Assembly (NCBI GenBank): GCA_029821145.1
Contig: JALGTY010000004.1
Coordinates: 1-54,166, forward strand
Length of the DNA: 54,166 nucleotides
DNA from: Candidatus Zipacnadia bacterium
GTDB lineage: Bacteria; Armatimonadota; Zipacnadia; Zipacnadales; UBA11051
Direction of reading: 5' to 3'
Shown here: positions 14,989 to 36,017 of the stretch, piece by piece
Numbering within the stretch: the stretch's first letter is position 1
How the letters are laid out: every line of letters begins with the position of its first letter
Position numbers and translations under genes: made by a program
The notes under the pieces: model-generated
Database searches by the model: none
Seen by the model: the letters and a program-made list of their open reading frames with translations, nothing else
Told to the model about the DNA's origin: nothing

Positions 14989-15024
14989 GAAATTGCCGGC
15001 GTCTTGTGCCAGCGGCCGGGGAAC

Positions 15025-17007: not shown

Positions 17008-17109
17008 TTGCCTTATGCCGAGAGGTTATTCAAACCTGGTGTTATCTTGTTGCTGTCTTGTAGTGTGTCAGGCTGCAAGAGTCCACCCACGCGGATGGGA
17101 AGAACGATT

Positions 17110-17141
17110 CCGCCCTCGGGCTGAGGGTTACCCGGGGGCGG
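17110..17141 (-). terminator. GC-rich hairpin, possible terminator after the 354-aa gene
   Basis: ccgccctcggg / cccgggggcgg form an 11-bp stem with one mismatch. On the minus strand it is followed by aatcgttctt, a weak U-tract. Confidence 0.3.
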
Positions 17142-17170
17142 CACAAATGAGCGCCTACCAAGCTCTGGCA

Positions 17171-18235
17171 TCAGGTCCGTGTGAAGGCGAGGGCCCCCGA
17201 GAGAGTGTATTGTGAGGTCTCAGAGTTGGTGTACACTACTCGCACGCGGTACTGGTAAATGTATCTGCCTGAGAGTGTGGCGGTGTCCGTGTATTGTGTC
17301 ACGGCGGGCCCGATGTTGTCGGACAGAAGGCTAAAGGTGCCACCATCAACACTGCGCCATATCTCGTATTTCAGTATCGTTAGTGTGGTACCGGTCGGCG
17401 GGTTCCACGTGAGGCGGATATTTGGCTGCATCTGCGTGAGATACAAGTTGGTGACCGGCTTGGCCTGCGCGGCAGCGCCGGGCGGGGCGGCTGGGGTGCT
17501 GGAGTTGTTGACCGCAATGATCAGCACACCAACGGCCAGAGCATAGAGTAGCCACTTCCACGATTTGCTCTTTTCCCTGGCAACCGGCTGGTATTCCGTC
17601 GGTTTGCCGGCCAGCGTCTTGGCAGCCTTGTAGGCGGCGTCGCGCATGGCCTCCGCGATAAGCGGTGAGTCGCTACCTGTATAGTGGGCGCGCTCCTGGC
17701 TGTTGCCCGATACGCCAAAGGCGCGATAGACGGTCGGCTCTTCAACTACTTCGCCGGTGGCTTCGTCAACATTGCCCTTTACCTCGTACGCTTGGCCGGA
17801 CAATATGATCTTAGCCTGTCGCGGCTCTTCCTGAATATCGAATGACTGGACACTGGAAATCACAACATAGTCCATGCCGAGTACGTTGCCGATAAACAGA
17901 GCGAGGCTGGCAGAAGCCGTTTCGCCGGCTTCTACATCAATCTGGCGCAGACGGCCCTCGGAGACCGCGCGCATCACCAGTGCGGAATGGGGCGAAAACC
18001 TGCTAGCTGCGAAGTCGGCCTGGGCGTCAATGGCCATCTGCAGGGAGGCGGTCGCCTTGTAGGCGATACTTGCCTGGACGCTTTCGCTCTCATCAAGAAC
18101 CGGAAAAACCAAGACAGATCTGGTGCCCGGCTCCGCGGTGGCGGCGAAGCTGACTGGTATCAGCGATGCCAACATGCAGAATGCAACTAGGAGGCTGATA
18201 GTGCGAAAAGTGCGTCGTTTTCTTATTGTATTCAT
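17171..18235 (-). CDS. Envelope protein: signal peptide + CsgG/LpoB/TolB-N-like domain + TM helix + FN3 domain
   Basis: Signal peptide MNTIRKRRTFRTISLLVAFCMLASLIPVSFA. The SVLVFPVLDES... domain follows, then a K/R cluster and the TM helix WKWLLYALAVGVLIIAV. The C-terminus is FN3-like (IRLTWNPPTG...YEIWRS...YIYQYRVRVV). Confidence 0.55.
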   Translation of the reverse strand: MNTIRKRRTFRTISLLVAFCMLASLIPVSFAATAEPGTRSVLVFPVLDESESVQASIAYKATASLQMAIDAQADFAASRFSPHSALVMRAVSEGRLRQIDVEAGETASASLALFIGNVLGMDYVVISSVQSFDIQEEPRQAKIILSGQAYEVKGNVDEATGEVVEEPTVYRAFGVSGNSQERAHYTGSDSPLIAEAMRDAAYKAAKTLAGKPTEYQPVAREKSKSWKWLLYALAVGVLIIAVNNSSTPAAPPGAAAQAKPVTNLYLTQMQPNIRLTWNPPTGTTLTILKYEIWRSVDGGTFSLLSDNIGPAVTQYTDTATLSGRYIYQYRVRVVYTNSETSQYTLSGALAFTRT

Positions 18236-18303
18236 TGCATCACTTCCCCCTTGCGGGAGGGCTTAATCGTTGTGGAATGACTTGCAGCATACTGTTTATC
18301 GCA

Positions 18304-21147
18304 TTACGGGCTGATATTGAAGGTCCGCAGGACATTGGCAACCTGCCCGGTTTCCGGACACCGCGCGGTAATATGACAGATGTAACAGCCGCTTGGGACC
18401 GGGGCACCCTTCTGGTTCTGGCCGGCCCAAACCACACTGTTAGTGCCTTCGGGCGACATCCGGTTGGCGGCCACGCGCGCGACCGGCACGCCGGATATGT
18501 TGCGGATGACGATGTCAACATTAGCCGGTACGGTCAGGCTGTAGGTGATGGGGACCTGTCCGCCGCGAGCCTGCTGCGCGCTGAGGCTGGTCACCATGAG
18601 CGTATTGGGGCCACGCTGCCGAACGATCAGTTCGAATACTCGCGTCTCGTGGTCCTGTCTGGTGCGGTAGGTGTAGGAACTGGCGGTTCGCATGTAGCAG
18701 CGTCTGCCGGTGGCTGTATCAACAAGCGTGGGCACCAGGTCGCCGCCCATCGGCGCGAGGTCATCCCAACTGACCGTGACATCCTGGTCGGCAACGCCGG
18801 TGGAGACGGCAAAGCGCCAGGTCGTATTGGGGGCGGGTGGCCTCATGTCAACCAGCAAGCGGCCAGCCTCGTCCGCCGGCGCGTCACCACACAGGAAACC
18901 AGCATTGAGTGCCCTTGCGCCCTCGGCGACTGCCACCGGCGGCTGGGGCATGTCGTTGCGGTCGTAGCCGTCCTTGGCGCCCGGGCAGGTGCCGAAGGCA
19001 CGGTTGGTCCTGACCTGCTCGCCGGCAGTTACCGACAGCTTCACAGCCCAGCGGTCACGATCCGGTGCGGCGGCTGTCACCGGCTCCTGGGCGGCTACCG
19101 TGGCGGGGGAGAAGAGACTTGGCGGCGGGAACTGCAGAGTTATGTCGTCATAGCACAGCAGCCAATAGCCTTTGTACGGATCCAGCCGCGCCTCGGATAG
19201 CTCGGTGGACCACACGTAGTCATTGGCGAGCGGATCATATTCAAAGATGGTGGGCACCAGCAGCAGGCGGCTATAGGCCTCCCAGATCGAGTACTCGCCG
19301 CCGGCCGGCCCAATAACGCGGGCCTGGTCCAGACGCAAGGGTATGGTAAAGGGGTTGCCAATCTGGTTCCAGCCCGCCGGAAGGCGGATACTGTAGGTGC
19401 GTTCGGTAGATACAGGAACGGCGTCAAGGGGAAGTTCGACGGACTCGCGGGTCAGGTTCAGCAGCCAGAAGCCCACACCCGGCTCGATGTTGGTCGTACT
19501 GGGATCGGGGAACCAACGATACTGCCCAGTATGCGGGTCCCAGCGCACGATGGTAGCATTCCCGCCCGGCTGCAGACTACCCAGGTCCTGGAATACCCAC
19601 TCCGCATCCGTATTGCCGAATTCATAAGGTATGGAGACCATCTCCAGCCCGCGGGGCGACTCCAACGGATTGAGTACCGGCACGGCAGGGATGTTGATGA
19701 GTCGCTCCAGCACCTTGCCCTGCGGTCCGGTGAACTTGACCGAGTGGCGCCCCGGGCGAGCGGCAGTGGCCCGGATCATCCAACTGACCCACTTCAGTTC
19801 GTTGCGCCGCACTACGCCGACCGACTTCGTGGGGCTTTCGCCCTCCATTAGCTCCAGCCCAATAGGCAGCCGGATGCGGACGCTGGCGTCCAGTAGCGCC
19901 TCGGCCCCATAGTTATCTATGTAGGCTGCTATCGGGAAGGGGGAGCGGCCCTCGGAATCGCCGAGGTAATAATCCTCGACCACGTCTGGTGTGGCCGGGT
20001 CATCCCCGGTCTGTTGAATCAGCGAGGGAGGGGTATAGACCAGAAACGCATAGGGACGGTCATAGTCGGGAGTTGACATGCCCACACCGTAATAGGTGAC
20101 AAAGCGGCACGACTGGCCCGGTGATATCTCCTCGGGGTCCCACTTGACCGCATACCCCCAGTCTTCCCCCAGCAGCAAGGCTTGCGGATTCGGAGTGAAG
20201 TAGTATTGGCTGGACAGTCCCATGTTGCGCATCTGTCCCCAGGCAACCGAGTCAGGCAGGCCTGCGCTCTTGCTGGCCGGCCCGGCGTCCAAGACCTCCT
20301 GGGCGTTGATTACGCCGCGTATAGCTACGGTGGGAGCCATCGGGTCGTCGTATGTGACCCAGGTGTCCGGCAACAATTGGCCACCGAACGTAGTATCCGG
20401 CAACTTGGTTTCCCTGGTAATGGCGGTCCCGTCAGGCAGGATGATGGCCTGGCCGTCCTGCACGGCGGCACCACCAAAGATGCCGTCAAACACAATGCGG
20501 ACGCCGATACGTTGTTGCTGGGGGGTGGTGTTATAGACGATGTATTCGGCCTGCAAGGCGTCGCCGATGAGAGTAAGAGCCTGGCGCACTTCAATCCATG
20601 CCGTAGGAAGATCGTCTTCATCAAAAGCAACAGGCAGACGATAAATGCCAGTCAGATCTCTGGTACCGGCGACGGGAGCGGCGATCCAGTAGTTGGTCAG
20701 GGCGGCCGACGATTCTTGGGGATCCTGACTAGCCATCAGTTCGTGAATGTCGTAGAAGTACCCCAGGTCTTCGTCGTCCTCAACATCTTCAGCCTGTCGA
20801 GGATTTATGGCGATAGTGGTCTTGCTGGTAAAAGAGCCTCCCTGTGCGACGCTGGCGATGTTGCGGCTCTCGTCACCTGTGCGGGTGGGATCGCCCCCAA
20901 TAGGAGCTGCGGTGCCGGTCCAGAGCTGAAAGCGGCCGGCGGGGTAGTACATCCAGTCATCACCGGTTATCGTCAACGCGGGGTATTCCAGCTCCAGTCT
21001 GGTCAGCCCGCCTGGGTGCAGAACCGAGACAGTGTGGGTGGGCTGCTGGCAGAAGACGGGAGCCAGACTGACGAGCACCAGCACTAGAGTCCACAGCAGT
21101 ATGGTCTGCCGCGGAAGTTGTCGGTCAAGACTGGTTTGAGGGCCCAC
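18304..21147 (-). CDS. Large secreted protein of unknown function (947 aa) with shared C-terminal cassette and FlgD-Ig-like tail
   Basis: A signal-like segment (ILLWTLVLVLVSLAPVFCQ) is present. No family was recognised for aa 40-500. From about aa 501 onward it carries the IPYEF...GFWLL / GWNQIGNPF...GYWLL / W.VKL... / FlgD-Ig-like cassette (TYSLTVPANVDIVIRNISGVPVA...WAGQNQKGAPVPSGCY). Confidence 0.6.
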   Translation of the reverse strand: MGPQTSLDRQLPRQTILLWTLVLVLVSLAPVFCQQPTHTVSVLHPGGLTRLELEYPALTITGDDWMYYPAGRFQLWTGTAAPIGGDPTRTGDESRNIASVAQGGSFTSKTTIAINPRQAEDVEDDEDLGYFYDIHELMASQDPQESSAALTNYWIAAPVAGTRDLTGIYRLPVAFDEDDLPTAWIEVRQALTLIGDALQAEYIVYNTTPQQQRIGVRIVFDGIFGGAAVQDGQAIILPDGTAITRETKLPDTTFGGQLLPDTWVTYDDPMAPTVAIRGVINAQEVLDAGPASKSAGLPDSVAWGQMRNMGLSSQYYFTPNPQALLLGEDWGYAVKWDPEEISPGQSCRFVTYYGVGMSTPDYDRPYAFLVYTPPSLIQQTGDDPATPDVVEDYYLGDSEGRSPFPIAAYIDNYGAEALLDASVRIRLPIGLELMEGESPTKSVGVVRRNELKWVSWMIRATAARPGRHSVKFTGPQGKVLERLINIPAVPVLNPLESPRGLEMVSIPYEFGNTDAEWVFQDLGSLQPGGNATIVRWDPHTGQYRWFPDPSTTNIEPGVGFWLLNLTRESVELPLDAVPVSTERTYSIRLPAGWNQIGNPFTIPLRLDQARVIGPAGGEYSIWEAYSRLLLVPTIFEYDPLANDYVWSTELSEARLDPYKGYWLLCYDDITLQFPPPSLFSPATVAAQEPVTAAAPDRDRWAVKLSVTAGEQVRTNRAFGTCPGAKDGYDRNDMPQPPVAVAEGARALNAGFLCGDAPADEAGRLLVDMRPPAPNTTWRFAVSTGVADQDVTVSWDDLAPMGGDLVPTLVDTATGRRCYMRTASSYTYRTRQDHETRVFELIVRQRGPNTLMVTSLSAQQARGGQVPITYSLTVPANVDIVIRNISGVPVARVAANRMSPEGTNSVVWAGQNQKGAPVPSGCYICHITARCPETGQVANVLRTFNISP

Positions 21148-21178
21148 GCAACTTCAGCTCCTCTCGAAGGCCGATAGT

Positions 21179-24100
21179 TCACCTTATCTTATCGAAAAGT
21201 GCGATAGCCTGTACGGTCTGGCCTTCCGGGGTGCGCGCAGTCAAGCGCACCAGGTACCTGCCATTGGGAACTCTGGTGCCGCTGTGGTTGCGGCCATTCC
21301 AGGACATTGTTTGCGTCACGCCGGCGGCTGCTTCAGTCCGCGTCAGACGTGCGATCGGCAGCCCCGCTATGTTGCGGATATCGGCAGTAACAGTAGCAGC
21401 ACGCGTCAAGGTGTAACTGACAGTCACGCTACCGTCGGTGGCATTGGCCGTGTTAATGGCCGAGACGGCCAGGCTGCCCGACTGCGCAACGGTGCAGATT
21501 ATCCTGAAATGCCGTATCTCCTGTTCGTCGCCGGTCTGGAACGTATAGCCGCTGGTTGTACGCATGTAGATGTCGCGGTTGCCGTCCAGGTCGCGCAAGA
21601 TCAGCCGGACGTTTTTCGGCACCGTCCTATTGAGTTCCTCCCAGGCGAGGGTTACGGGAGCCCGTGACAAGGTGGAAGCGACTTCGATGTCCCACTCCTG
21701 GCGGGCGCTGAGGCTGCTTCGCACATCGCGCACATAGTGTCCAGCGCGGCTACCCCAGTCGGGCTGCGGCATGTACAGCGCGAGGCCCTGGGCCAGAGCA
21801 GGCGGCTCATTCAGGTCCAGACCGATGTCATAGCCCTGGGTGCCTTCAGGGTGTACGCCGATGTAGTTGACAGGGTCCTGGAACTGGCCGCTGTAAGCTG
21901 AGATCTTCAGTGTCCATTGATCCCTGGTAGGCACGTTACTTAACTTGGCGGGCCTGGGCCTCTCGACGACCGTAGTGGTCACTGCCGGGTTGTACATGAC
22001 CAGGGCGGCATCGCGCAACACGTGCACCCAGTAGCCGCGCATATACTCCAGTATGTCTTCAGACGGATCAGACGAGAATTGGTAGTAGCCGCCGGTGGTC
22101 GTGCTGACGAAGTCGAACAGCACCCCCTCGGTGATCGCGACGTCTTCAGACATCGCTTCGCGCAGGTCATAGCGCTGGCCATCGGCAATGAAGCTAACCG
22201 TGCCCCAGTCAACCACCGACTCATAGGGGTTACCGATGAGGTTCCAGCCGCGCGGCGAATCGGTTCCATAGATGAGATTGATTTGGTACGATGTCGTGTC
22301 GCTGAGGGGGCCGGCGCCGCCTGTGTTGAGGGTGCAGCGTTTGGGCAGGCGCACGAAGTATCCGAGGCCGGCAGGCGGGTGGCTGACTATGGGATCGGAG
22401 CCGCGCGCATCCGGCGGGTTGAAGGTGGCATATTCGTCCGGATAGATGTGATACTTGACCGGCCGGGCGTCGTCGGGCACCCAGCGCGCCAGTTGCAACT
22501 CGTCGTATGGTATGCCGAATACCAGAGAGGGGTCCGCGTTGACCAGACCCGCATAGGGTAAGCTTATCAGGTGCAATCCGGCGTCAATTGATGGAGCCGC
22601 GACGCGGAAACTGGTCACCGCGGGTGTGGCCGCGTTACCATCATAGTCACTGGCGACAATAGTCAGAGTGTGTTGGCTGCGGGTAAGCTCCGCCCCGGCC
22701 GGCACCGTGTATGTGAGCAGGCCGTTGCTGGGCACATAGTCCCCGCTCACCAGATTGCCATCCAATCGGATCTCAATTGTGGTCTCGTCCACGCCGCTGC
22801 CGACATCGGTGATGGTGGCGATTATCGTTGGTGTGGCGTCGGTGATTGTGCTGCCATTGCGCGGGAAACTGATGCTGATCTGTGGCGGGGTGTTGTCGGT
22901 GCCGACACGCAGTCTCAGCCGTCCGTGGCCGTAGGTGTTGTCGGGTATCGGCTGGTTGGTGGACGGGTCGGTTTGCAGCATATGCTTGGCGGCCAGCTCC
23001 TGCAGTGTAGCGGCGAGCATGACCGGGGTATTGGTGCTGTCCTCATCCAGCAGCAGTGCAGCGGCGCCGGCGACGTGCGGTGCCGCTGCCGAGGTGCCGA
23101 CGAACGGATCGTACGCCGTTTCGACCAGGCTGGTGGTCACAAAATCGGGAGCTGACAGATCGGGCTTCGGCAGACCGCTAAGCGAGGGGCCGCGCGAGCT
23201 GAATTCTTCAATCTGATCTATGGGCAGCACCGGCTCGGCCCCCACGATGCGCAAGGAGCCGCGCGTGGCGCCGACGGTGAACGAGCCACTGGCTTCGGCA
23301 GGAACCGGCAGACTGTGCTCGAGTACTTGGTGTATGCCCTCTACATCAACATCAGGCAGGAAAAGCTGGAAATGGTCATCGGCAGGAATTGAGTCGAGTG
23401 ACATGCGTTCAATGCGCAGAGAGTAGACGCCGGCCTCAGACAGGTACGCTATCAGCATCTCATCAGGCGGATCATCGCCGTTCTGTGTCACCGCGGACCT
23501 GGTAACCTCGGTGCCGCTCGCGTCCAACAGCACCAGATCATAGTCATGGTTGGTGGTGGCGCCGGCGGTCTGATACCAACTCAGGAACGCCTGAAATCTG
23601 CCGGCGGGCAGGCTGAGGTTCATATCCTGATCACCAAAGCCCCACTCGTGGAGTCGGTCGCTGTTGCTGTCGCTCCAGTCGCCTTCGTAATGACGCTGGG
23701 CGTGGTTACCGGCGGCATTTACCCAGAAAACTCCCGAGTTCCATGCCATATTGACTTTCTGCGATATCGCGTGAGTGCCATCGTAGGGGCCCTCAAAGAT
23801 CCCCGCTGACATCACCGCAACGCCAAAACTATTGTCCCGCACATAGTTGATGGCCTGCTCGATGGCGAGGTTGGTGTCAACTGCAAGCAGATATATCTCG
23901 GCCCCGGGGGCCATATCGGCGACCACTTCGGCCACTGCTGTACCGTGCTGCGACCCGCCCATGCCGCCGCCAGTAAACGATATTGTACGCCCAGAACCCT
24001 CACCGACGCCGGGGATCTCTGCTTCGTCGTAGCCGCCAAAGCCGGTGTCTATGACCGCAACTTTGACGCCTGAGCCGGTGATGCCATTGGTGTGCATCGC

Positions 24101-24556
24101 AGTGGCGGCCGTGAGTTGGACGCCTTCGGAGGAGGTCCCCCCGTAGCCCTGCAGCGGCACCGGCCTACGCGGCAGGCGAACCTGCGCCACCTCAGCAAGC
24201 TCGGCAACCGCGTTCAAGGAGCCGGTGGGCAGCCAAGCCTGGACGCGTCTGTCCATACGAATGTCCACCCGGCCGCCATACGCAGCTAAGTTGGTTGAGA
24301 ACGCCGCGAGAGGAGTGCGAAAGATGATTTCAACCTGCACTCGGCCGCCCTGGATACGCACCAGTGGGCTAACAGCGGCCGGCGCCGCCCGGCCTGAGGC
24401 CGCGGCAGCAGCAACTGCGCGCAGCGGGCCAGCCAGGTCGTCAGAGACCTTGGGGGCTGCCTCGGTCGGTGCGCCGCATGCCAAAAGCAGTGCGACCAGA
24501 GCGATTGCACAGGCACTTTGCAGGCGAGCTTTTGCAGGGCGGCTATGATGCCTCAA
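21179..24556 (-). CDS. Secreted subtilisin-like serine protease (peptidase S8) with Ig-like repeats and the shared C-terminal cassette
   Basis: Catalytic-triad motifs are VKVAVIDTG (Asp170), HGTAVAEV (His204) and GTSAAAPHVAGAAALL (Ser489), with AAGN as the oxyanion Asn. The start is TTG after GAGGAGGAGG. The C-terminus is FlgD-Ig-like (VSYTLTRAATVTADIRNIAGLPIA...WNGRNHSGTRVPNGRY). Confidence 0.85.
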   Translation of the reverse strand: MRHHSRPAKARLQSACAIALVALLLACGAPTEAAPKVSDDLAGPLRAVAAAAASGRAAPAAVSPLVRIQGGRVQVEIIFRTPLAAFSTNLAAYGGRVDIRMDRRVQAWLPTGSLNAVAELAEVAQVRLPRRPVPLQGYGGTSSEGVQLTAATAMHTNGITGSGVKVAVIDTGFGGYDEAEIPGVGEGSGRTISFTGGGMGGSQHGTAVAEVVADMAPGAEIYLLAVDTNLAIEQAINYVRDNSFGVAVMSAGIFEGPYDGTHAISQKVNMAWNSGVFWVNAAGNHAQRHYEGDWSDSNSDRLHEWGFGDQDMNLSLPAGRFQAFLSWYQTAGATTNHDYDLVLLDASGTEVTRSAVTQNGDDPPDEMLIAYLSEAGVYSLRIERMSLDSIPADDHFQLFLPDVDVEGIHQVLEHSLPVPAEASGSFTVGATRGSLRIVGAEPVLPIDQIEEFSSRGPSLSGLPKPDLSAPDFVTTSLVETAYDPFVGTSAAAPHVAGAAALLLDEDSTNTPVMLAATLQELAAKHMLQTDPSTNQPIPDNTYGHGRLRLRVGTDNTPPQISISFPRNGSTITDATPTIIATITDVGSGVDETTIEIRLDGNLVSGDYVPSNGLLTYTVPAGAELTRSQHTLTIVASDYDGNAATPAVTSFRVAAPSIDAGLHLISLPYAGLVNADPSLVFGIPYDELQLARWVPDDARPVKYHIYPDEYATFNPPDARGSDPIVSHPPAGLGYFVRLPKRCTLNTGGAGPLSDTTSYQINLIYGTDSPRGWNLIGNPYESVVDWGTVSFIADGQRYDLREAMSEDVAITEGVLFDFVSTTTGGYYQFSSDPSEDILEYMRGYWVHVLRDAALVMYNPAVTTTVVERPRPAKLSNVPTRDQWTLKISAYSGQFQDPVNYIGVHPEGTQGYDIGLDLNEPPALAQGLALYMPQPDWGSRAGHYVRDVRSSLSARQEWDIEVASTLSRAPVTLAWEELNRTVPKNVRLILRDLDGNRDIYMRTTSGYTFQTGDEQEIRHFRIICTVAQSGSLAVSAINTANATDGSVTVSYTLTRAATVTADIRNIAGLPIARLTRTEAAAGVTQTMSWNGRNHSGTRVPNGRYLVRLTARTPEGQTVQAIALFDKIR

Positions 24557-24635
24557 TAGGATTCCTCCTCCTCACTGTGAGGCGCCGGCACCTGCCCTGC
24601 GCTGCACAGCGTGGTGGCATCAGATGATATGTTTG

Positions 24636-25859
24636 TTATGGTCTACTCTTTGCAGCACAGACAGTCTCAGCCGCCGCGCTGCACGGGACTTGTATTGTCG
24701 AACCGATAAGCTGGCTCTTGCTGATCTCGTAGTAGGCCTGTAGAAACTCGGCCCACCCGGTCTCAGCAGCCAGACGATAAGTGCTCCCGTAATGTGGTGG
24801 GACCTGTTCCCACGTGGCCGGGAAGAAAATCCCCAGATTGCCCACATGGACATTTGCATTCGTCGCTTGTCGGCCGGTGCCCGGGACTATCGCGCGCTCC
24901 AGGCTTGCCTCCAATTCGCCGGCACGCTGCGAGACTTCCCTGGTGGCGGCCATTTCGTGCAGCAGGCGGGCCAGATACAGCAGATCGCACATCTCGTCTC
25001 TGTATCCCCAGTTGGGACTGCGGCTGCGTACCAAGCGTAGTGCGGGCGCATTGGCACGCGCATCCCCATTCAATGCCTCGACCAGAGCCTTCAAACGTGT
25101 TGCGACATCAGCCACGGCCCGCAGATCAACCCGTCCAAGCGCATGCTCATACTCGGCATACAGCGCCACGACAGCCGCACGTCCGTCATCACAGCCGTTC
25201 AATCGCGCCAGTACCTGCGCCCAAGGCAGACCCGGACTCGGCACGCGGTCGGGCGAGGCTACCAGGTAATTGGCCGTCTGCCGCAGGCTGTAGGCCACTT
25301 CAATACTTGCGGCGTAGCACGCCTCCAGAGATACCAACTCAACGGGCCTGTCCGTCGCATGGCTCTCGGCAAGGGCGGCGGACAACTCAGCGATACTTAG
25401 TGTATCGTTGCTGCCACCATCAAAGACCACGCCGCTAAGGTTCGGCACGAGGGTCGCCAGCCCGGTACCGTGGCCCATAACGATGAGCAGATAACGGTCT
25501 GCCGACAGATTGCCGCGTGCCCATTTCAAGAAGCGGGTCAATGTCGGCTGTGCGCCCATATTGACAACGCCTAGCGGCTGCCAGTTGGCGTGATTGCCGG
25601 ACACGGCCAGCCACCTGGCACAGACGTATGGTCCGTCCATCTGCACCGCAGCGCTGCAACAGCCGTCTGCGGCGGCTTCCATTATGGCCTGCCAGTAGGC
25701 CGCGGCTTCCTGCTCAAGCCCGCCCTGTCCGCTCAGGTACGCCATTACACCCCATTTCGGGCGCGTCGCGGCGAATGCATTGTCAAGGAGCAACACTGAA
25801 CATACTGCAAACACGACGAATACGAGTCCCGCCCGCCTGGGCGGCCGTGGCCATTGCAT
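24636..25859 (-). CDS. Clostripain-like cysteine peptidase (family C11), secreted
   Basis: KWGVMAYLSGQGGLE, the His motif LLIVMGHGTG and the Cys motif VSLEACYAASIEV fit the C11 His/Cys dyad. The ATG at 25859 lies 13 nt after the upstream stop and is preceded by GGAG. Confidence 0.65.
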   Translation of the reverse strand: MQWPRPPRRAGLVFVVFAVCSVLLLDNAFAATRPKWGVMAYLSGQGGLEQEAAAYWQAIMEAAADGCCSAAVQMDGPYVCARWLAVSGNHANWQPLGVVNMGAQPTLTRFLKWARGNLSADRYLLIVMGHGTGLATLVPNLSGVVFDGGSNDTLSIAELSAALAESHATDRPVELVSLEACYAASIEVAYSLRQTANYLVASPDRVPSPGLPWAQVLARLNGCDDGRAAVVALYAEYEHALGRVDLRAVADVATRLKALVEALNGDARANAPALRLVRSRSPNWGYRDEMCDLLYLARLLHEMAATREVSQRAGELEASLERAIVPGTGRQATNANVHVGNLGIFFPATWEQVPPHYGSTYRLAAETGWAEFLQAYYEISKSQLIGSTIQVPCSAAAETVCAAKSRP

Positions 25860-25872
25860 GGTCGGCTCCGGG

Positions 25873-27795
25873 TCAGCGGCCAACGCTGCCGTGCTTGACT
25901 CGCCAGAAGCCGGGCTTGCGGGTGGCCGGTTTCGTGTTGTCTTTGTTAAGGTCCAAGGTGCCCGGAGGCCCTAGGACGGTCTGGAATTCCCGCATTTGAC
26001 TGTACAGGTAGCCGACCTTATCGAGGTCCCTGTTGTGCGGGTCGGCTGCGTCGCCGCTGGCCCTGGCCCCGACACGCCAGTAATAGGTCGTGTCCGGAGT
26101 GAGCCCGTCAGCCGGATCGGCGACGGTGAAGGAGGCGCTCATTGTGGTGGCGCCGCCGCTGGCGCGGAGTTCTCCGCTCTGCCAGTAGAGATTGCCCCTG
26201 CCGTTGGGATCGGTGGGGCCGAACAGTTCGACGTTGTAGATGTCCGCGCCCGTGGTCACCTGCCAGGTGAAGCGGATGTTGTCGGTAGCCTGGTTTGGTG
26301 CGCCGTGAGCCGGGCTGGAAAGCTGTGGTGGCAAGAAGTATGTGATCGGCCCGAAATGGTTGCTGGCTTCGGACAAGCCGGAGCCGCCTTCCACCTCGAG
26401 TTCGAAGGTCGCCTCCACCGGCTCCTCAGCCTGCTCGGTGGCTATCGGCGGGTTGAAGCCCGGTGGGCGCTCGGGCTCAATTATTCTGCGCACGGTATAG
26501 TAATACCTGGTGCCCGGGCTCATTGGCAAGTGGTTCCATGAGGCGGTGACGTCGGCTTCTTCCTGTTCGCCTTCCTCGACAAAATAGAAGTATGTGAATT
26601 CGAAGTCCTCGATATATTCAGTGAGATTGGGGTCGTCACTGTAGCGATTGGAGGGCAGGTCTTTGCCCTCGAATACATCAATCATGTTGTGAGCAGCGGG
26701 CACGAAGTAAGGGCTGTTACCCCGGTAAATGACCCAGCCGTGAGTTCTTTCCCGTTCGGTATTGTCCGAATGGACCTTCAGAACGATGGCGGGAGCCGCG
26801 CCGCATGTCGCCTGAGAGAGGTTGCCGGTAAGCTCGGAGGCACTGGCGATCGAGGTGCCGGTGCCAACGGTGTAGATGCCCAGCAGCAGACCAACAGCGG
26901 CGATCATCTGGACGAGGTTCTTTCGAGACTTGCTGCGCTGTTCGGCCTTCTTGCGAACAGGCGGCTTGTACAGCTTATACACCCTGTCACCCGTCTGAGG
27001 GACAGACCCCTCGACAACATTACCCCAGGCCATGTTGGTGTCCACTTCCCCCACCGATATTATACCAACACGCCGCATAACTACCTTTTCCAGATCCGCA
27101 GACCAGGTGGGGCGCATTACAAGGAACTCGGTGCCGATCTCGATACCATCGCCGATGCCCAGGCCGATGTTTACTTCGCCGCGGTCGGTTACCAGGTCCA
27201 CGTGTCCGCGGCGCACCCGCCTGGCCATCATCTGGGTCACGGCGGTCTCGGCCGCGGCGCGCATGGCGTCGTTGACAACCTTGGTGATATCACCGCTCCA
27301 GCCGGGTATCGGACTGGTGCTTACGGTTGCCACCGCGCCATCCAGAAAGTCCTGCACGGTGACGCTAAGCATCTTGATCTCAATACTGCAGCGGGCCTGG
27401 CCGGTACTCTTGTTGACAGACAGCTCGCTGATGGTGCCGGTGAGGACTCTCTCGACCCTTAGTGCCTCGCCAAGCCTCACCTGCTCAACCTTGGAGACCG
27501 GCGATTGCATGCCCAAGGCGGCCATGTCCCGGTTCAGATCCAGGGTCGAGGTGACCAGGAATTCTCGTGAGCCCTCCAGCGAAAGTGCGACCGCCGCCGC
27601 AGCTTTGTCCGGCAGCAGCGGGTCATCGTGGCCTGTAACATTAGCGAAGGGCAGCACCACACAGGAGGTAACGGTTCGTCCCACACCTGACGCTGCCGTT
27701 CGCTGGCCGAAGGACATGCCGCAGGGAAGAATTATCGCTGCGATGAGAAAGTAAACCAGCTTGCGCATTATCAAACTTCTTCGAATGTACTGCAT
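25873..27795 (-). CDS. Envelope protein: signal peptide + CsgG/LpoB/TolB-N-like domain + beta-rich domain + TM helix + two FN3-like domains
   Basis: MQYIRRSLIMRKLVYFLIAAIILPCGMSFG, then CVVLPFANVTGHDD...ERVLTGTISE. A K/R-rich stretch (KPPVRKKAEQRSKSRKN) precedes the TM helix LVQMIAAVGLLLGIYTV. FN3-like segments follow (YYYTVRRI; IRFTWQV...YYWRVGAR). The start is set at the ATG at 27795 after GGAGGGAGAG. Confidence 0.55.
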   Translation of the reverse strand: MQYIRRSLIMRKLVYFLIAAIILPCGMSFGQRTAASGVGRTVTSCVVLPFANVTGHDDPLLPDKAAAAVALSLEGSREFLVTSTLDLNRDMAALGMQSPVSKVEQVRLGEALRVERVLTGTISELSVNKSTGQARCSIEIKMLSVTVQDFLDGAVATVSTSPIPGWSGDITKVVNDAMRAAAETAVTQMMARRVRRGHVDLVTDRGEVNIGLGIGDGIEIGTEFLVMRPTWSADLEKVVMRRVGIISVGEVDTNMAWGNVVEGSVPQTGDRVYKLYKPPVRKKAEQRSKSRKNLVQMIAAVGLLLGIYTVGTGTSIASASELTGNLSQATCGAAPAIVLKVHSDNTERERTHGWVIYRGNSPYFVPAAHNMIDVFEGKDLPSNRYSDDPNLTEYIEDFEFTYFYFVEEGEQEEADVTASWNHLPMSPGTRYYYTVRRIIEPERPPGFNPPIATEQAEEPVEATFELEVEGGSGLSEASNHFGPITYFLPPQLSSPAHGAPNQATDNIRFTWQVTTGADIYNVELFGPTDPNGRGNLYWQSGELRASGGATTMSASFTVADPADGLTPDTTYYWRVGARASGDAADPHNRDLDKVGYLYSQMREFQTVLGPPGTLDLNKDNTKPATRKPGFWRVKHGSVGR

Positions 27796-27916
27796 CGAGA
27801 TAGCTCTCCCTCCGACGCAGACGCAGAGATGATGTGAGCGACTGCTGCCACTCAGACAGTATAGCATACGTCATTTGGTCTGTAAAAGTCCTACCCGTCG
27901 CGCTATTGCAGGCCTG

Positions 27917-30900
27917 CTAACGGATTATTGCGACCTGGGTCAGGGCCTGTGCCTGCTGGCCGTCCTCGGTGCGTGCGGTGATCCGGATGAGATAGCGGCC
28001 GTTGGGTACCCTGACGCCTGTATTGCTGCGGCCATTCCAGGCCACGGACTGCAAGCCGGCGGCCTGGCTCTGATCCTGCACCAGGCGCCTGATGAGGCGG
28101 CCGCTGATATTGTGCACATCAACGGTCACTTGAGCGTTTTTCGACAGCGTGTAGCTGACCGCAGCGCTCGCAGCCTTGGTGGAAGCGACTGCGGCGGTTA
28201 TGGCCAACTGGCCGACGCCTGACGCTGAGGTGCTCACCCGTAGCTTGCGGGTGTGCGCGTCAGCCTCGAAGCTGTAAGCGCGGCTGGTGCGCATGTACAC
28301 CCGCTTGCCGGTAGCCAAATCGGTCAGGATAGGCTGGGTCCCGGCCGGCACGCCGGACATATCGGGCCAGGATATTTCGATCGGCTGCCCCTTGAGGTTG
28401 GTCTGCACCTCAACGTCCCACTGCTGTTGCTTGGACTGCTGACTACGGATGTCAACTGCCATCCCCGGGGCATTTGCACCTTGTAGCGACAGATAGACAT
28501 ACGCGCCGATGGCAGGCACCGGCGGCTTGGCCTGGTCGAGGCCCGGATCGAAGCCGTCAGAGGCGCCGGCTGCGGTCCCGATGTAGGCTGCGGTGTCCTG
28601 CAGACCGGCGACGGTGGCGGTGGTCTGCAACTGCAATAGCCAACCATCGGCCGGAACGGGGACGGCCGGTCTGGCCGCCTGCGTGCCTACGCCCAGCGTG
28701 TCTGTGCTCTCGTCAATGACTAGCTCGCAAGGCTCGTTGGCGTTGAGCCAGTAGCCGACATAGGGCGTCAATGCTGCGGCGACGCGGTAACCGCCCAGCA
28801 TGTAGGCGAACAGGCCGGAACCCAGCACGTTTCGGGCCATGGCGTCCTGCACCGACCGCAACACTCCGTCCTGGTCGCGGACACTGGTTGCGTAGAACTC
28901 GATGCTCGACAAGAACGGGTTACCGATGAGGTTCCAGCCTGGGACCAGCGGGATCTCGTGGATGGTTGCGGCCGGCGTGCCCTCCTGAGCCAGATCGGTG
29001 GGGCCTGCCAGATTCAGCCAGTAGCCGGTACCGAGGCGGAAGCGGTCGGCGGGAGCGCTGGGATAGATCCGGTAACGCCCGCTGCTTGCCTCCCAAGTGG
29101 CCATGTGCAGCGTGTCAACGCCGCCGAGCAAGTCCTTCGGGTCTATGTTATTCTCTCCACTGCTAAAATCCCAGGGCAGGGAGATAAGCTGCAACCCGGC
29201 CGGGAAGACGTGCAGGCTTTCCAGCACGAAGCTTACGCCGGTGGTCGTCTTACCGCTGAGCACGGTCACAACGCGCTGCTGGGGCTGCGGCTTGTAGCCG
29301 GAGACTACCGGCACAACAGTGACTTCGCCGGCCGGCACGCTTTCTTGATCGTCATCTTTGTCGAAGATGTAGTTGTAGGGCGGTGTGCCGTCGCCCGGAT
29401 CGGTAGGCGGCTCGGCGTGGGTCTCGGTGGTGCAAATGACAGTGTCACCCGACATGATTCTTATCACCACGCCGCCCACACACAGGCCGGTAGTTGCAGA
29501 TACAACCTTGCCAGAGATGCCGCCATCAGCCACCGTGTTGAGCTCTATATACACCTCTTTAGTCTCCTGAGAAACTACCACAGTGCCCAGCAGGGGTGAG
29601 GCTTCGTAGCCGGCGCGCGAGGCTCGCACCTGATAGGTGCCGGCCGGCAGCGAGATATTGACTATCCCGGTCGAGTCAGTTAGCGGGGCAGGCGCAACTA
29701 CCTGCTGGCCGTTCTCGTCGAGGATCTCGATTGTCGCATCGGGGATGTCGTCGCCCGTGTCGGCCTCGTTCACGTGTACCTCAAGGATTCCGTCAGCAGC
29801 GCCAAGAATAAAGGCCAGGTTGGTGGTATTGCCGGGCGTGACCGTTGCCTCGAGCTGCTGTGTGCCGTAGCCGACCACAGTGCCGTCAGCGACTACGATG
29901 TAGTCTCCGGGCGGAATTCCCGGAATGACGAAGGTGCCGTCCGCAGCGCTGGTACCTTCGCCGATGGGATCTCCCAGATCCTCAATGGGGATATCGCCCT
30001 CGGCCTGACCGGGGGCGACGGACGCTGTTGCCGTTTCCTCTTCTTCTTCCTCCACAGGCGCCGGATAGACGCGTATGGTGACGTTGCTGATGGGGTCGCC
30101 GGTTGCCTCAGAGACTACGGTTCCGGCTATTGCGCCTGGCTGGGCTTCCTTGATTGCGAAGTCCACCTGCACAGGTTCCTGACCGCCATGGACCCAGGAC
30201 CGTGTTCCGTGGTCAATTTCGAAGCCGGTGCGTATCACTTCGAAGGTATAATGGCCCGGGTTGAGGCCCTGCATGACATACGTGCCGTCCTTCTGGCAGC
30301 GGACGGCATACTTATACTCGGTGACCTCTCCGACTGGGTCGTCGCCCTCCTCGGGCTGCTCTCTGACACCCGCTAATAGGGTGGCAATGACGACCGGCTC
30401 AGGGTCGGTGACAGGCTTTCCGCCCTCGCTGATGGAGACGACGCGCCCCTGGAAGGTAGCGGTGCGCATCCAGCACTTGGCATTGTGGGCCAGGTGGCTG
30501 CGGTGATTCGCACAGTGTGCCGGAATGGGCGTGTGTGCGTTGATATAGCGCCGGTGAATCTGCTCAAAGCCGAATGAGAGGAAGGCCACCCGTGCACCGG
30601 TAGTGAAATTTTGATATCTGGTGCCGGCACCGGTGCCGTCGAAGCCCCCATACCCGTACATCTTTACATTTCCCACCGGGGTGATGCCATCGGCCCAGTC
30701 TGAGAATTCCGCCGCGTCGCAAAGACAGGGCTGGGAGGAGCTTTGGTTCTGTGGCGTCACCAGATCGATCGGGTTATCTGCTGCCTCGTACCAGAGGGGG
30801 GTAAATAACTGGCCAGTTGAATAGTGCACACTTGAGCTTTCGACCCAGGCGTCCCAGGCAACCGGGTCAGTGGCGGCCCCTCCAACCGTAAATCCCCACG

Positions 30901-33109: not shown

Positions 33110-33268
33110 TCCTCAGCAGATGCTTTGATGCATTCTACGTTGACCGGCCAGCGCCAACCACAGTAGCCCCACCCCTGGTCACCTATCAAACATGTTCCCA
33201 CGTAGCAACATACAAGGCTCACATTACGCACTACGCAGCAATGCTCCCGTGAGCGCCAGGGCCACGGC

Positions 33269-33298
33269 ATTATAGCACACCGTCTTGCGGCTTGCCAA
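33269..33298 (-). promoter_or_regulatory. Strong sigma70-type promoter for the secreted-protein island
   Basis: The minus strand reads TTGGCA (33298-33293), an 18-nt spacer, then TGcTATAAT (extended -10, TATAAT at 33274-33269). This leaves a leader of about 155 nt before the giant ORF. Confidence 0.55.
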
Positions 33299-34094: not shown

Positions 34095-34127
34095 CCCAGC
34101 TTCATCCCTGTCACTACAACAGTATGC

Positions 34128-35879: not shown

Positions 35880-35950
35880 GCGAACAATCTCCCTTCGGCC
35901 GTCTCTGGCGGACGGCCATACCAAGTTGAGTTACGCGATGTCGAGTTTTC

Positions 35951-36017
35951 TGTCGGGCTGGAGCCTACTTCGCCATAGTACCCGCAGGCTACATCGGTTG
36001 AAAGCCCGACCCATGCG
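35951..36017. repeat. Composite REP-like element (diverged) in the polA-rpsA spacer
   Basis: The left arm is tgtcgggctgga, the right arm is gaaagcccgacccatgcg, and an insert of about 37 nt lies between them. Confidence 0.55.

What the first reader, a model, noticed from the sequence alone, without database searches (positions are those of the whole stretch)
18304..29212. Three otherwise unrelated giant proteins share a ~430-470-aa four-part C-terminal cassette ending in a FlgD-Ig-like domain
Seen: the C-terminal regions of the 947-aa (nt 18304-19647), 1125-aa S8 (21179-22576) and 1730-aa (27917-29212) proteins align module by module. (1) x-(I/V)S(L/I)P(Y/W)...W....Y(R/H)..P......G.G(Y/F)W(L/V): LEMVSIPYEF...GFWLL, LHLISLPYAG...GYFVRL, LQLISLPWDF...GYWLNL. 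(2) GWN(L/Q)IGNP(F/Y)...GYW: GWNQIGNPF..KGYWLL, GWNLIGNPY..RGYWVH, GWNLIGNPF..VGYWLN. (3) A W.(L/V)(K/Q)(L/I)...DGYD...PP...W...V...W.....L.D...G...YMRT...Y.F segment. (4) A FlgD-Ig / T9SS-CTD-like tail (V.Y.L...A.V..D(I/V).N..G......W.G.N..G..VP.G.Y). Two paralogues even share an exact 23-nt string, gggttaccgatgaggttccagcc, at 22227-22249 and 28917-28939. Inference: this is a common sorting, anchoring or assembly cassette fused to different cargo domains. I cannot name modules 1-3 from established families.
Basis: partly seen in the sequence, partly recalled or inferred. Interest (0 to 1): 0.75.

Follow-up and report, generated by a model that had tools for sequence, protein, structure and literature searches.

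The report
Shared unnamed tail on three surface proteins
Three otherwise unrelated secreted proteins of an Armatimonadota bacterium share a real, roughly 440-residue C-terminal region containing two widespread domains that Pfam, NCBIfam and the PDB do not cover; it ends in a secretion-signal-like Ig domain and lies in a gene cluster conserved across the phylum.

Summary
The C-terminal ~430-470 aa of the 947-, 1125- and 1730-aa proteins align at 28-34% identity (BLASTP E 4e-42 to 6e-56), and their N-terminal parts are unrelated.

The "four-part" cassette is three structural units:
- Modules 1 and 2 are homologous ~85-aa repeats (HHalign 96%) that fold into one compact all-beta domain (AF2 pLDDT 95.8). 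It has no significant PDB fold match and no Pfam or NCBIfam family.
- Module 3 is an unnamed beta-sandwich.
- The tail is a FlgD-Ig domain of the T9SS-CTD type.

The M1M2-M3 unit is widespread: 25,612 clusters at 50% identity, 3,416 of them at E<=1e-30. In FCB-group bacteria it sits directly upstream of bona fide T9SS sorting domains on varied cargo.

In Armatimonadota it is largely confined to one triad. That triad lies in a syntenic cluster (rpsA-coaE-[C]-[CsgG-like]-[B]-[A]-[OM barrel]) that recurs across the classes of the phylum sampled here.

Only the last domain has a link to sorting. My best reading, which is inferred, is a membrane-proximal display and retention module. I rate it a new variant of a known kind, of moderate to high interest.

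The parts
27917..33109 (-). Protein C, 1730 aa. N-terminal hydrophobic signal or anchor, TolB-like PD40 propeller, choice_anch_X motif, 3-4 CarboxypepD_reg domains, then the cassette.
28709..29212 (-). C cassette unit 1 (M1M2, C residues ~1300-1467). Two homologous ~85-aa repeats (GLQLISLPW...GTGYW and GWNLIGNPF...VGYW) forming one all-beta domain.
   Evidence: AF2 pLDDT 95.8, pTM 0.90. HHalign of M1 against M2: 96.3%, E=1.6e-9. No PDB fold hit at E<=1e-3.
28220..28657 (-). C cassette unit 2 (M3, C residues ~1485-1630). Beta-sandwich with conserved W..L.L, G....A.DG.D...D..PP, VD.R, W and YMRT motifs.
   Evidence: AF2 model with flanking low-pLDDT linkers. Conserved columns. No Pfam hit in any of 32 members.
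27920..28207 (-). C cassette unit 3 (C residues ~1635-1730). FlgD-Ig / T9SS-CTD-like beta-sandwich ending in ...AIIR.
   Evidence: PF13860 at 51.2 bits. TIGR04183 at 20.1 bits, below the cut-off of 23. FlgD structures 3osv and 7eha match.
21179..24556 (-). Protein B, 1125 aa. Signal peptide with a possible lipobox LLAC, S8 subtilase (D/H/S motifs present by eye), Big_7 Ig domain, then the cassette.
21992..22582 (-). B cassette M1M2 (B residues ~659-855). Carries a lineage-specific ~14-aa insertion in repeat 1.
21485..21934 (-). B cassette M3 (B residues ~875-1024).
21182..21475 (-). B FlgD-Ig tail (B residues ~1028-1125), ending in ...DKIR.
   Evidence: PF13860 at 40.3 bits.
18304..21147 (-). 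Protein A, 947 aa. Signal peptide, a ~490-aa N-terminal region with no family hit, then the cassette.
   Evidence: Orthologues are P0005, P0011 and P0019.
19129..19656 (-). A cassette M1M2 (A residues ~498-673).
18619..19065 (-). A cassette M3 (A residues ~695-843).
18307..18603 (-). A FlgD-Ig tail (A residues ~849-947).
   Evidence: PF13860 at 26.0 bits, marginally below the cut-off of 27. Aligns with the tails of B and C.
25873..27867 (-). Cluster neighbour, 664 aa. Signal, ~250-aa domain of unknown family (weak LPP20 hit, E=0.71), TM helix, FN3-like C-terminal domains. Conserved next to the C-type gene across Armatimonadota.
24636..25883 (-). Cluster neighbour, 415 aa. Exported clostripain-family (C11, clan CD) peptidase with GHG and EAC motifs. 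Present only in the Armatimonadia-like subset.
   Evidence: PF03415 at 89 bits. Sequence. Distribution.
17171..18235 (-). Cluster neighbour, 354 aa. Signal, ~200-aa domain, TM helix, FN3-like end. Same layout as the 664-aa protein.
15025..17007 (-). Cluster neighbour, 660 aa. Signal peptide and a Big_1/Invasin_D3-like Ig domain. The rest is read as an outer-membrane beta-barrel only from its terminal ...GGFATF (by eye, untested). [quoted passage not shown]
33269..33298 (-). Sigma-70-like promoter match (11 of 12, extended -10) about 160 nt upstream of gene C.
   Evidence: This is a consensus match only.
14995..15013 (-). Terminator-like hairpin immediately after the stop codon of the 660-aa OMP gene.
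   Evidence: This is a consensus match only.

Best explanation
Shown: the three tails are paralogous copies of a ~440-aa C-terminal region made of three domains.
1. M1M2: a ~170-aa all-beta domain built from two homologous ~85-aa repeats (strand motif G-W/L-N/Q-x-I-S/G-x-P, then G-x-G-Y-W). It has no named family and no solved structural relative.
2. M3: a ~145-aa beta-sandwich, also unnamed, with conserved acidic DG.D...D..PP / VD.R loops.
3. A ~95-aa FlgD-Ig beta-sandwich of the same kind as type-A T9SS C-terminal sorting domains, usually ending in Arg or Lys.

Also shown: all three proteins have N-terminal hydrophobic signal-like segments. Their genes lie in a seven-gene, same-strand cluster whose core recurs, with positional orthology of the three tails, in the Armatimonadota classes sampled. 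That core is the C-type giant, the CsgG-like/TM/FN3 protein, two further cassette proteins and a putative outer-membrane beta-barrel.

Inferred mechanism:
- The proteins are exported by Sec.
- The terminal Ig domain acts as the recognition or anchoring element at the outer membrane, as a T9SS CTD does.
- The M1M2-M3 unit stays with the mature protein as the membrane-proximal pedestal. It holds three different heads together at the cell surface: an S8 protease, a TolB-like propeller with a transthyretin-like array, and an unknown 490-aa domain.
- It may do this by binding a common envelope component or by binding the other cassettes.

In FCB-group bacteria the same M1M2-M3 unit does the same job for many cargos ahead of true T9SS CTDs.
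For: - Paralogy: BLASTP E 4e-42 to 6e-56.
- Domain parsing: AF2 of the C cassette gives pLDDT 93.2 and pTM 0.78, with low-confidence linkers at residues ~171-190 and ~331-340. M1M2 alone gives pLDDT 95.8 and pTM 0.90. M1 and M2 are repeats: HHalign 96.3%, E=1.6e-9.
- Unnamed families: no Pfam or NCBIfam hit outside the tail in the window proteins or in 32 diverse members. PDB sequence search finds nothing below E=0.096. Foldseek against the PDB gives a best E of 0.14 for M1M2.
- Spread: 25,612 representative clusters at E<=1e-3 and 3,416 at E<=1e-30. In 143 of the 170 proteins on hand the cassette is complete, and it almost always lies ~100 aa from the C-terminus.
- Link to sorting: the tail is FlgD_ig in 30 of 32 members and Por_Secre_tail in 5 of 32. 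Calditrichota, Cyclobacteriaceae and other FCB proteins carry M1M2-M3 directly before Por_Secre_tail above its cut-off of 27 (28-39.7 bits). Their cargos include PhoD, alkaline phosphatase, Laminin_G_3, FG-GAP and AIR9-Ig. 96 of 113 tails end in R or K.
- Cluster: 23 of 77 genome loci hold three cassette ORFs. Synteny rpsA-coaE-[C]-[664]-...-[660 OMP]-uvrB holds in Armatimonadia, Chthonomonadales, Fimbriimonadales and a WS1-labelled MAG.
- Positional orthology: position 1 is C-type in 21 of 23 loci, position 2 is B-type in 19 of 23, and position 3 is A-type in 11 of 23.
- Triad specificity: 86 of 96 FlgD-Ig-tailed top representatives with >=150 aa upstream of the cassette have A-, B- or C-type N-termini.
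- Promoter-like and terminator-like sites bracket the seven genes.
Against: - No experiment and no direct computational test shows export, cleavage, anchoring or binding.
- The window's tails do not reach the T9SS CTD model cut-off (TIGR04183 20.1 against 23; no PF18962 hit).
- The window encodes no recognisable T9SS component. The one review consulted describes T9SS as limited to Bacteroidetes (PMC11611037).
- M1/M2 repeats also occur without M3 or any CTD, in Methylococcales, Coprothermobacterota and an archaeal MAG protein. So M1M2 is not intrinsically a sorting element.
- 25 of 143 full cassettes end in a second M1M2 instead of an Ig tail.
- Whether the neighbours (OMP, CsgG-like proteins, C11 peptidase) act on the cassette is inferred from synteny alone. 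The C11 and S8 domains are missing from the Fimbriimonadales clusters.
Confidence: 0.5

Rival explanations
1. M1M2, with or without M3, is a carbohydrate- or substrate-binding module (CBM-like). It targets secreted enzymes to external polymers. Its position before the sorting domain is simply where accessory modules sit in secreted multidomain enzymes.
For: - The fold is all-beta, and the only structural resemblances are weak ones to jelly-roll or lectin-like proteins (HA70 and HA3 of botulinum complexes, cupins; E 0.14-0.4).
- Many conserved aromatic residues (W, Y).
- Cargo outside Armatimonadota is often enzymatic: PhoD, alkaline phosphatase, metallophosphatase P0020.
- M1M2 occurs alone at the C-terminus in some proteins and in lineages without T9SS.
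Against: - None of the fold matches is significant (no PDB hit at E<=1e-3; TM<=0.26).
- The conserved residues are mainly Gly, Pro and Trp in strand motifs, which is typical of structural cores.
- The unit sits on non-enzymatic proteins and keeps a fixed order and distance from the C-terminus in 113 of 143 cases.
- In Armatimonadota three position-orthologous copies have been kept in one housekeeping-linked cluster. That is hard to explain by substrate targeting.
Confidence: 0.2
2. The three cassettes are hetero-oligomerisation modules. The A, B and C tails co-assemble, for example as a heterotrimeric stalk or a polymer, into one envelope structure built by the cluster. The cassette is then an assembly interface rather than a sorting or retention tag.
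For: - Exactly three cassette genes sit in the same order in 23 loci across classes, with positional orthology.
- FlgD-Ig-tailed full cassettes are almost all of A, B or C type.
- The best whole-cassette fold hit is the fibril form of a subtilase, Vpr (8jmw_A, E=3.7e-6).
- FlgD itself is an oligomeric cap.
Against: - The Vpr and FN3 hits have TM<=0.21 and reflect generic tandem beta-sandwiches.
- In other phyla the cassette occurs on single proteins with diverse cargo.
- No multimer prediction could be run.
- This reading is not exclusive of the best explanation.
Confidence: 0.2
3. M1M2-M3 is an inert spacer of beta-domains with no specific partner. It is conserved only because it folds well and distances the cargo from the membrane.
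For: - M3 plus the tail resemble generic FN3/Ig pairs of adhesin stalks.
- Modules are shuffled and duplicated: extra M3 copies, M3 placed before M1M2 in P0021, M1M2-M3-M1M2 arrangements.
Against: - Sequence conservation is unusually strong for a spacer: nearly invariant GWN.IG.P, G.GYW, DG.D...PP and VD.R motifs hold down to ~25% overall identity across phyla.
- The order M1M2, then M3, then tail is fixed in most proteins.
Confidence: 0.1

Closest known systems
C-terminal region of T9SS type-A cargo: an Ig-like domain followed by the Por_Secre_tail CTD (TIGR04183 / PF18962), as in gingipain RgpB, PorU and PorZ
   Same: - Secreted proteins with an N-terminal signal and varied cargo.
- A beta-sandwich immediately before a ~90-aa terminal beta-sandwich that ends in a basic residue.
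- Relatives of this cassette in Calditrichota, Cyclobacteriaceae and others carry a true Por_Secre_tail (28-39.7 bits).
- PorU (6za2) and PorZ (5m11) appear among the fold matches.
   Different: - The window's tails score below the CTD cut-offs and lack the PNPF motif.
- The organism is an Armatimonadota, a phylum in which I know of no T9SS (own knowledge; the one review consulted limits T9SS to Bacteroidetes).
- The ~315-aa M1M2-M3 unit is not part of any description of T9SS signals that I could find.
FlgD Ig-like domain (PF13860), the flagellar hook cap
   Same: The last ~95 aa match PF13860 (26-51 bits) and superpose on FlgD structures: 3osv at rmsd 2.3 over 81 columns, and 7eha at 31% identity over 94 columns.
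   Different: There is no FlgD N-terminal domain and no flagellar gene context. The domain here is a C-terminal appendage of large Sec-dependent proteins.
NCBI 'choice-of-anchor' domains: families defined by their association with alternative C-terminal sorting signals
   Same: - M1M2-M3 is found ahead of alternative termini: an FlgD-Ig tail, a Por_Secre_tail CTD, or a second M1M2.
- Protein C itself carries a choice_anch_X motif at 30.7 bits, above the cut-off of 25.
   Different: No choice-of-anchor or other NCBIfam model matches M1M2 or M3. The resemblance is conceptual only.
Subtilases with C-terminal beta-sandwich arrays: C5a peptidase ScpA/ScpB and the Vpr fibril (8jmw)
   Same: Protein B is an S8 peptidase followed by Ig-like domains. 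ScpA, ScpB and Vpr are among the best whole-cassette fold matches (E 3.7e-6 to 4e-4).
   Different: TM-scores are <=0.21. The match covers generic tandem sandwiches, not M1M2. The same cassette is also on two non-protease proteins.

Membership tests
T9SS type-A C-terminal sorting domain (Por_Secre_tail, TIGR04183 / PF18962) | Sequence score at or above the curated cut-off of the family model. | tested here: not met
   TIGR04183 gives 20.1 bits against a cut-off of 23 for the C tail, and no hit for A or B. PF18962 does not hit the window members, although 5 of 32 aligned relatives do hit it.
T9SS type-A C-terminal sorting domain (Por_Secre_tail, TIGR04183 / PF18962) | A ~70-100-aa beta-sandwich at the extreme C-terminus of a Sec-exported protein, with a conserved basic residue at or near the end. 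| tested here: met
   The AF2 model is an all-beta sandwich over residues 340-435 of the cassette. N-terminal hydrophobic signals are visible. 96 of 113 tails end in R or K; B and C end in R, A ends in P.
T9SS type-A C-terminal sorting domain (Por_Secre_tail, TIGR04183 / PF18962) | The genome encodes the T9SS machinery (PorK/L/M/N, SprA/Sov, PorV, PorU). | not testable with these tools
   Only the 54-kb window and +/-10-kb loci are available. No such gene lies in the window. Whole genomes could not be scanned.
T9SS type-A C-terminal sorting domain (Por_Secre_tail, TIGR04183 / PF18962) | The CTD is cleaved and the cargo is attached to anionic LPS. | not testable with these tools
   This needs proteomics and biochemistry.
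FlgD_ig (PF13860) | Score at or above the gathering cut-off of 27 bits. | tested here: met
   C scores 51.2 and B scores 40.3. A scores 26.0, marginally below, but it aligns with the other two.
Flagellar hook-cap protein FlgD | An N-terminal FlgD domain and a flagellar gene context. | tested here: not met
   NCBIfam FlgD equivalogs score 21-41 bits against cut-offs of 230-383 and cover only the Ig domain. The neighbours are envelope and housekeeping genes.
Any named domain family for M1M2 (Pfam-A, NCBIfam, PDB) | A significant sequence or fold match. | tested here: not met
   Pfam at E<=0.1 and NCBIfam at E<=1 give nothing. A PDB profile search gives a best E of 0.096. Foldseek against the PDB gives a best E of 0.14 and TM<=0.26. 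The one BFVD hit is an unannotated likely homologue.
Any named domain family for M3 | A significant sequence match. | tested here: not met
   No Pfam or NCBIfam hit. HHalign against the FlgD-Ig tail gives 0.5% probability. Its fold was judged only from the AF2 strand pattern and whole-cassette matches to FN3/Ig pairs; no M3-only fold search was run.
Carbohydrate-binding module / lectin (considered for M1M2) | Homology or fold match to a known CBM or lectin family. | tested here: not met
   Only non-significant resemblances were found: HA70/HA3 and cupins at E 0.14-0.4.
Peptidase S8 (N-terminal part of protein B) | Pfam score above the cut-off, and Asp/His/Ser motifs present. | tested here: met
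   PF00082 scores 73.9 bits against 21.8. The motifs VAVIDTG, HGTAVA and GTSAAAPHVAG are visible (by eye).
   Pfam at E<=5 gives only Big_1 and Invasin_D3. NCBIfam and PDB sequence searches are empty. 34 homologues carry only PF02369 and PF09134.

The most novel reading that the evidence does not exclude
Armatimonadota may possess a phylum-specific envelope apparatus that does not depend on T9SS. It would be encoded by this conserved cluster: the Ig-fronted putative outer-membrane barrel, the two CsgG-like/TM/FN3 proteins and, in some classes, a clan-CD peptidase. Its three dedicated clients or subunits would be recognised and assembled through the shared M1M2-M3-Ig cassette. That would make it either an evolutionary cousin or forerunner of the T9SS CTD-sorting logic in a Terrabacteria-affiliated phylum (placement from my own knowledge), or a new tripartite surface machine.
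Probability: 0.2. Interest if true: 0.85.

Novelty: new variant of a known kind. Interest (0 to 1): 0.62.

Why it matters
- It defines two large domain families that Pfam, NCBIfam and the PDB do not cover, seen in tens of thousands of protein clusters. One of them has a high-confidence predicted fold with no solved relative. These are immediate targets for family curation and structure determination.
- It shows that many T9SS-type cargo proteins in FCB bacteria share a conserved ~315-aa unit just before the sorting domain. I found no description of this unit.
- It reveals a seven-gene envelope cluster whose core is conserved across the Armatimonadota classes sampled here and is anchored beside rpsA, coaE and uvrB. 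The envelope biology of this phylum is almost unstudied.
- If the cluster is a dedicated display or secretion system, it would extend CTD-type sorting beyond the FCB group.

Tried and rejected
- A fourth cassette copy in the window: none found.
- Named families for M1M2 or M3: Pfam, NCBIfam, PDB sequence search and Foldseek PDB are all negative.
- M3 as a diverged copy of the FlgD-Ig tail or of M1M2: rejected (HHalign 0.2-0.5%).
- The 660-aa OMP as LptD-like: no support.
- The C11 peptidase as a universal PorU-like sortase for the cassette: weakened, because C11 and the S8 head are absent from Fimbriimonadales clusters that keep the triad.
- The two CsgG-like proteins as clear paralogues: direct BLAST is not significant (E=0.12). 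There is only an indirect link through other loci.
- The search for related loci with the 15-sequence alignment failed because no stretch was conserved enough. I repeated it with the 3-sequence alignment.
- The look-up of encoding contigs for the window's own OMP: not on record.
- Literature searches for T9SS or FlgD-Ig tails in Armatimonadota returned nothing relevant.
- Whole-cassette Foldseek returned only generic tandem-sandwich matches (TM<=0.21), so I re-ran it on M1M2 alone.

Full report
**Observation**

The region holds three minus-strand ORFs:
- A, 18304-21147, 947 aa.
- B, 21179-24556, 1125 aa.
- C, 27917-33109, 1730 aa.

Pfam finds Peptidase_S8 and Big_7 in B, and PD40 repeats plus several CarboxypepD_reg domains in C. 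It finds nothing in the first 860 residues of A.

The C-terminal ~450-475 residues align pairwise by BLASTP:
- A with B: 28% identity, E=4e-42.
- B with C: 34% identity, E=6e-56.
- A with C: 30% identity, E=4e-42.

All other HSPs have E>=0.04, so the N-terminal parts are unrelated at this sensitivity. The 23-nt identical string is real, unique to these two sites, and encodes GWNLIGNP. An HMM of the three tails finds no further copy among the window's ORFs.

**Anatomy**

An AlphaFold2 model of the C cassette, built from a 32-sequence alignment, has mean pLDDT 93.2 and pTM 0.78 and is all-beta. Confidence dips only at residues ~171-190 and ~331-340. The cassette therefore has three units:
- M3, residues ~190-335.
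- The FlgD-Ig tail, residues ~340-435.

M1M2 modelled alone gives pLDDT 95.8 and pTM 0.90, so it is one compact domain. Profile-profile comparison shows that its two halves are homologous repeats (HHalign probability 96.3%, E=1.6e-9 over 66 columns). M3 is not detectably related to M1M2 or to the tail.

**What is named and what is not**

In the three window proteins and in 32 diverse members, only the tail hits Pfam: FlgD_ig in 30 of 32, Por_Secre_tail in 5 of 32 and CHU_C in 5 of 32. NCBIfam gives only local FlgD, PorU-C-terminus and PorZ matches on the tail. TIGR04183 scores 20.1 bits against a cut-off of 23 for C. A profile of M1M2-M3 finds nothing in PDB sequences below E=0.096.

Foldseek with the whole cassette returns generic tandem beta-sandwich proteins at TM<=0.21: the Vpr fibril, PorU, C5a peptidase and FN3 pairs. 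FlgD itself matches the tail. Foldseek with M1M2 alone returns no PDB match at E<=1e-3 (best 0.14, TM<=0.26). It returns one BFVD hit, a likely homologue labelled 'putative hemin binding protein' from an uncultured marine phage bin (E=1.3e-4, TMq 0.59). M1M2 and M3 are therefore uncharacterised domain families. No AlphaFold DB library was available to test whether the M1M2 fold is otherwise unrepresented.

**Distribution**

An exhaustive HMMER search was run with a 15-sequence profile of M1M2-M3 against 1.84 billion cluster representatives. It finds 25,612 proteins at E<=1e-3, 11,217 at E<=1e-10 and 3,416 at E<=1e-30.

Of the 170 proteins on hand (24 and 146 further ones), 143 carry a complete cassette; they are 435-3,646 aa long. 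Among those 143:
- 113 carry a ~100-aa tail after M3.
- 25 carry a second M1M2 pair instead of the tail.
- Several carry extra M3 copies upstream.

One Ignavibacteriaceae protein (P0021) has M3 before M1M2, and some proteins have only M1M2 at the C-terminus. The units are therefore independent, shuffled domains.

The M1/M2 repeat alone also occurs in proteins labelled Methylococcales, Coprothermobacterota and Thermoplasmata. It is often joined to Por_Secre_tail, and no source gives it a name.

**Link to sorting**

Relatives from Calditrichota (L063), Cyclobacteriaceae (L074), a Deferribacteres-labelled MAG (L035), and representatives P0088 and P0091 carry M1M2-M3 directly upstream of a Por_Secre_tail. 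That domain scores above its cut-off of 27 (28-39.7 bits). The cargos include PhoD and alkaline phosphatases, Laminin_G_3, FG-GAP and PQQ propellers, and Ig arrays.

13 of 113 tails have the PNPF motif of type-A CTDs, and 96 of 113 end in Arg or Lys. T9SS CTDs are sometimes labelled as FlgD_ig superfamily, and that review describes T9SS as limited to Bacteroidetes (PMC11611037). I found no paper on T9SS or such tails in Armatimonadota.

**Genomic context**

The window is core chromosome, with ilv genes, uvrB/uvrC, polA, rpsA, coaE, accA/accD, rpoA, rpsD, map and adk. The three cassette genes lie in a same-strand block running from 33109 to 15025, in this order:
1. C.
2. A 664-aa protein with a signal, an unknown domain, a TM helix and FN3-like domains.
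3. A C11 clostripain-like peptidase (89 bits; GHG and EAC motifs).
4. B.
5. A.
6. A 354-aa protein laid out like the 664-aa one.
7. A 660-aa protein with a Big_1/Invasin_D3-like Ig domain and a terminal ...GGFATF, which I read as an outer-membrane barrel from that terminus alone (by eye, untested).

These are shown. A promoter-like site (11 of 12) lies upstream of C, and a terminator-like hairpin follows the OMP gene. Both are consensus matches only.

A genome scan gave 214 relatives and kept 77 loci, mostly Armatimonadota MAGs (Armatimonadia, Chthonomonadales, Fimbriimonadales), plus WS1 and FCB-group phyla. The closest, L024, is an Armatimonadia MAG (75-87% identity for the genes with complete matches; 60% for C, whose ORF is cut at the locus edge), so the window is from that class.

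23 loci contain three cassette ORFs. The arrangement rpsA-coaE-[C-type]-[664-type]-[cassette 2]-[cassette 3]-(354-type)-[660-type OMP]-uvrB recurs across these classes. The S8 head and the C11 gene are detected only in the Armatimonadia-like subset.

The cassettes are orthologous by position: position 1 is C-type in 21 of 23 loci, position 2 is B-type in 19 of 23, and position 3 is A-type in 11 of 23. So the triplication is old. Among top representatives with FlgD-Ig tails and at least 150 aa upstream of the cassette, 86 of 96 have A-, B- or C-type N-termini. In this phylum the cassette therefore marks a fixed triad rather than many cargos.

Homologues of the OMP are annotated only as hypothetical or 'Ig-like domain-containing'. 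There is no LptD or OstA signal.

**Interpretation**

Shown:
- True paralogy of the tails.
- A three-domain architecture.
- Two unnamed domain families.
- Wide distribution.
- Placement immediately before T9SS-type terminal domains.
- A conserved Armatimonadota cluster with a position-orthologous triad.

Inferred:
- The proteins are Sec-exported.
- The terminal Ig domain is the element recognised or anchored at the outer membrane.
- M1M2-M3 remains as the membrane-proximal retention or assembly module that displays three different heads together.

Rival readings are given with their tests in the rival-explanations section: a CBM-like substrate binder, a hetero-oligomerisation interface, and an inert spacer. 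The oligomerisation reading is compatible with the main one.

It holds across phyla and for the last domain. Nothing shows that M1M2 or M3 are sorting elements, and within this lineage the cargo set is fixed.

**Novelty and score**

The kind of thing is known: a modular C-terminal region of secreted surface proteins ending in a CTD-like Ig domain. These particular domains, their ubiquity ahead of T9SS CTDs, and the Armatimonadota triad cluster appear undescribed in the resources searched. I rate it a new variant of a known kind, with interest about 0.6. The most novel reading still open is a T9SS-independent, phylum-specific display or secretion apparatus, or a tripartite surface machine (probability ~0.2).

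Noticed in passing
window 15025-33298 (minus strand): Seven same-strand genes with short gaps (C, 664-aa, C11, B, A, 354-aa, 660-aa OMP). They are bracketed by a strong promoter-like site (33298-33269) and a terminator-like hairpin (15013-14995). The core of the block is syntenic beside rpsA/coaE and uvrB in several Armatimonadota classes.
   Followed up: partly
window 15025-17007 (-): The 660-aa protein has an N-terminal Big_1/Invasin_D3-like Ig domain and ends in ...GGFATF; the outer-membrane barrel is inferred from that terminus alone. An Ig domain placed before the barrel would be the reverse of the order in intimin and invasin. No LptD or OstA signal. 34 homologues, all unnamed and labelled Armatimonadota where a label exists.
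   Followed up: partly
window 17171-18235 (-) and 25873-27867 (-): Two proteins share one unusual layout: signal peptide, ~200-250-aa domain of unknown family (weak LPP20 hit, E=0.71), basic stretch plus a single TM helix, then FN3-like domain(s). Direct BLAST between them is not significant (E=0.12). The 354-aa query does find 664-type ORFs in other loci at 1e-5 to 1e-8. Their topology and role are unexplained.
   Followed up: partly
window 24636-25883 (-): An exported clostripain-family (C11, clan CD) peptidase with GHG and EAC motifs is encoded between the cassette genes. It belongs to the same clan as the T9SS sortase PorU (own knowledge). It is absent from Fimbriimonadales versions of the cluster, so it is not a universal partner.
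   Followed up: partly
window 29210-33109 (-), N-terminal part of protein C: The N-terminal part has a TolB-like PD40 propeller, a choice_anch_X motif (NF041940, 30.7 bits against a cut-off of 25) and a weak internal Por_Secre_tail-like match at residues 1122-1164 that lies within the CarboxypepD_reg array.
   Followed up: no
Proteins P0048, P0062, P0084, P0122, P0148 and others; loci L042, L046, L059: An alternative architecture, M1M2-M3-M1M2, has no Ig tail. It occurs on proteins up to 3,872 aa, in 25 of the 143 proteins with a complete cassette. The taxa are unnamed 'bacterium' MAGs. Here M1M2 itself is the C-terminal domain.
   Followed up: partly
Proteins P0211, P0214, P0234, P0248, P0290: M1/M2-type repeats occur in proteins labelled Coprothermobacterota, Methylococcales and Thermoplasmata archaeon. 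This is well outside the T9SS-bearing phyla.
   Followed up: no
window 34001-36000: Strong negative AT skew (-0.33) over the rpsA (S1) gene region, in contrast to about +/-0.1 elsewhere in the window. It is probably a codon or amino-acid composition effect of the minus-strand S1 gene.
   Followed up: no
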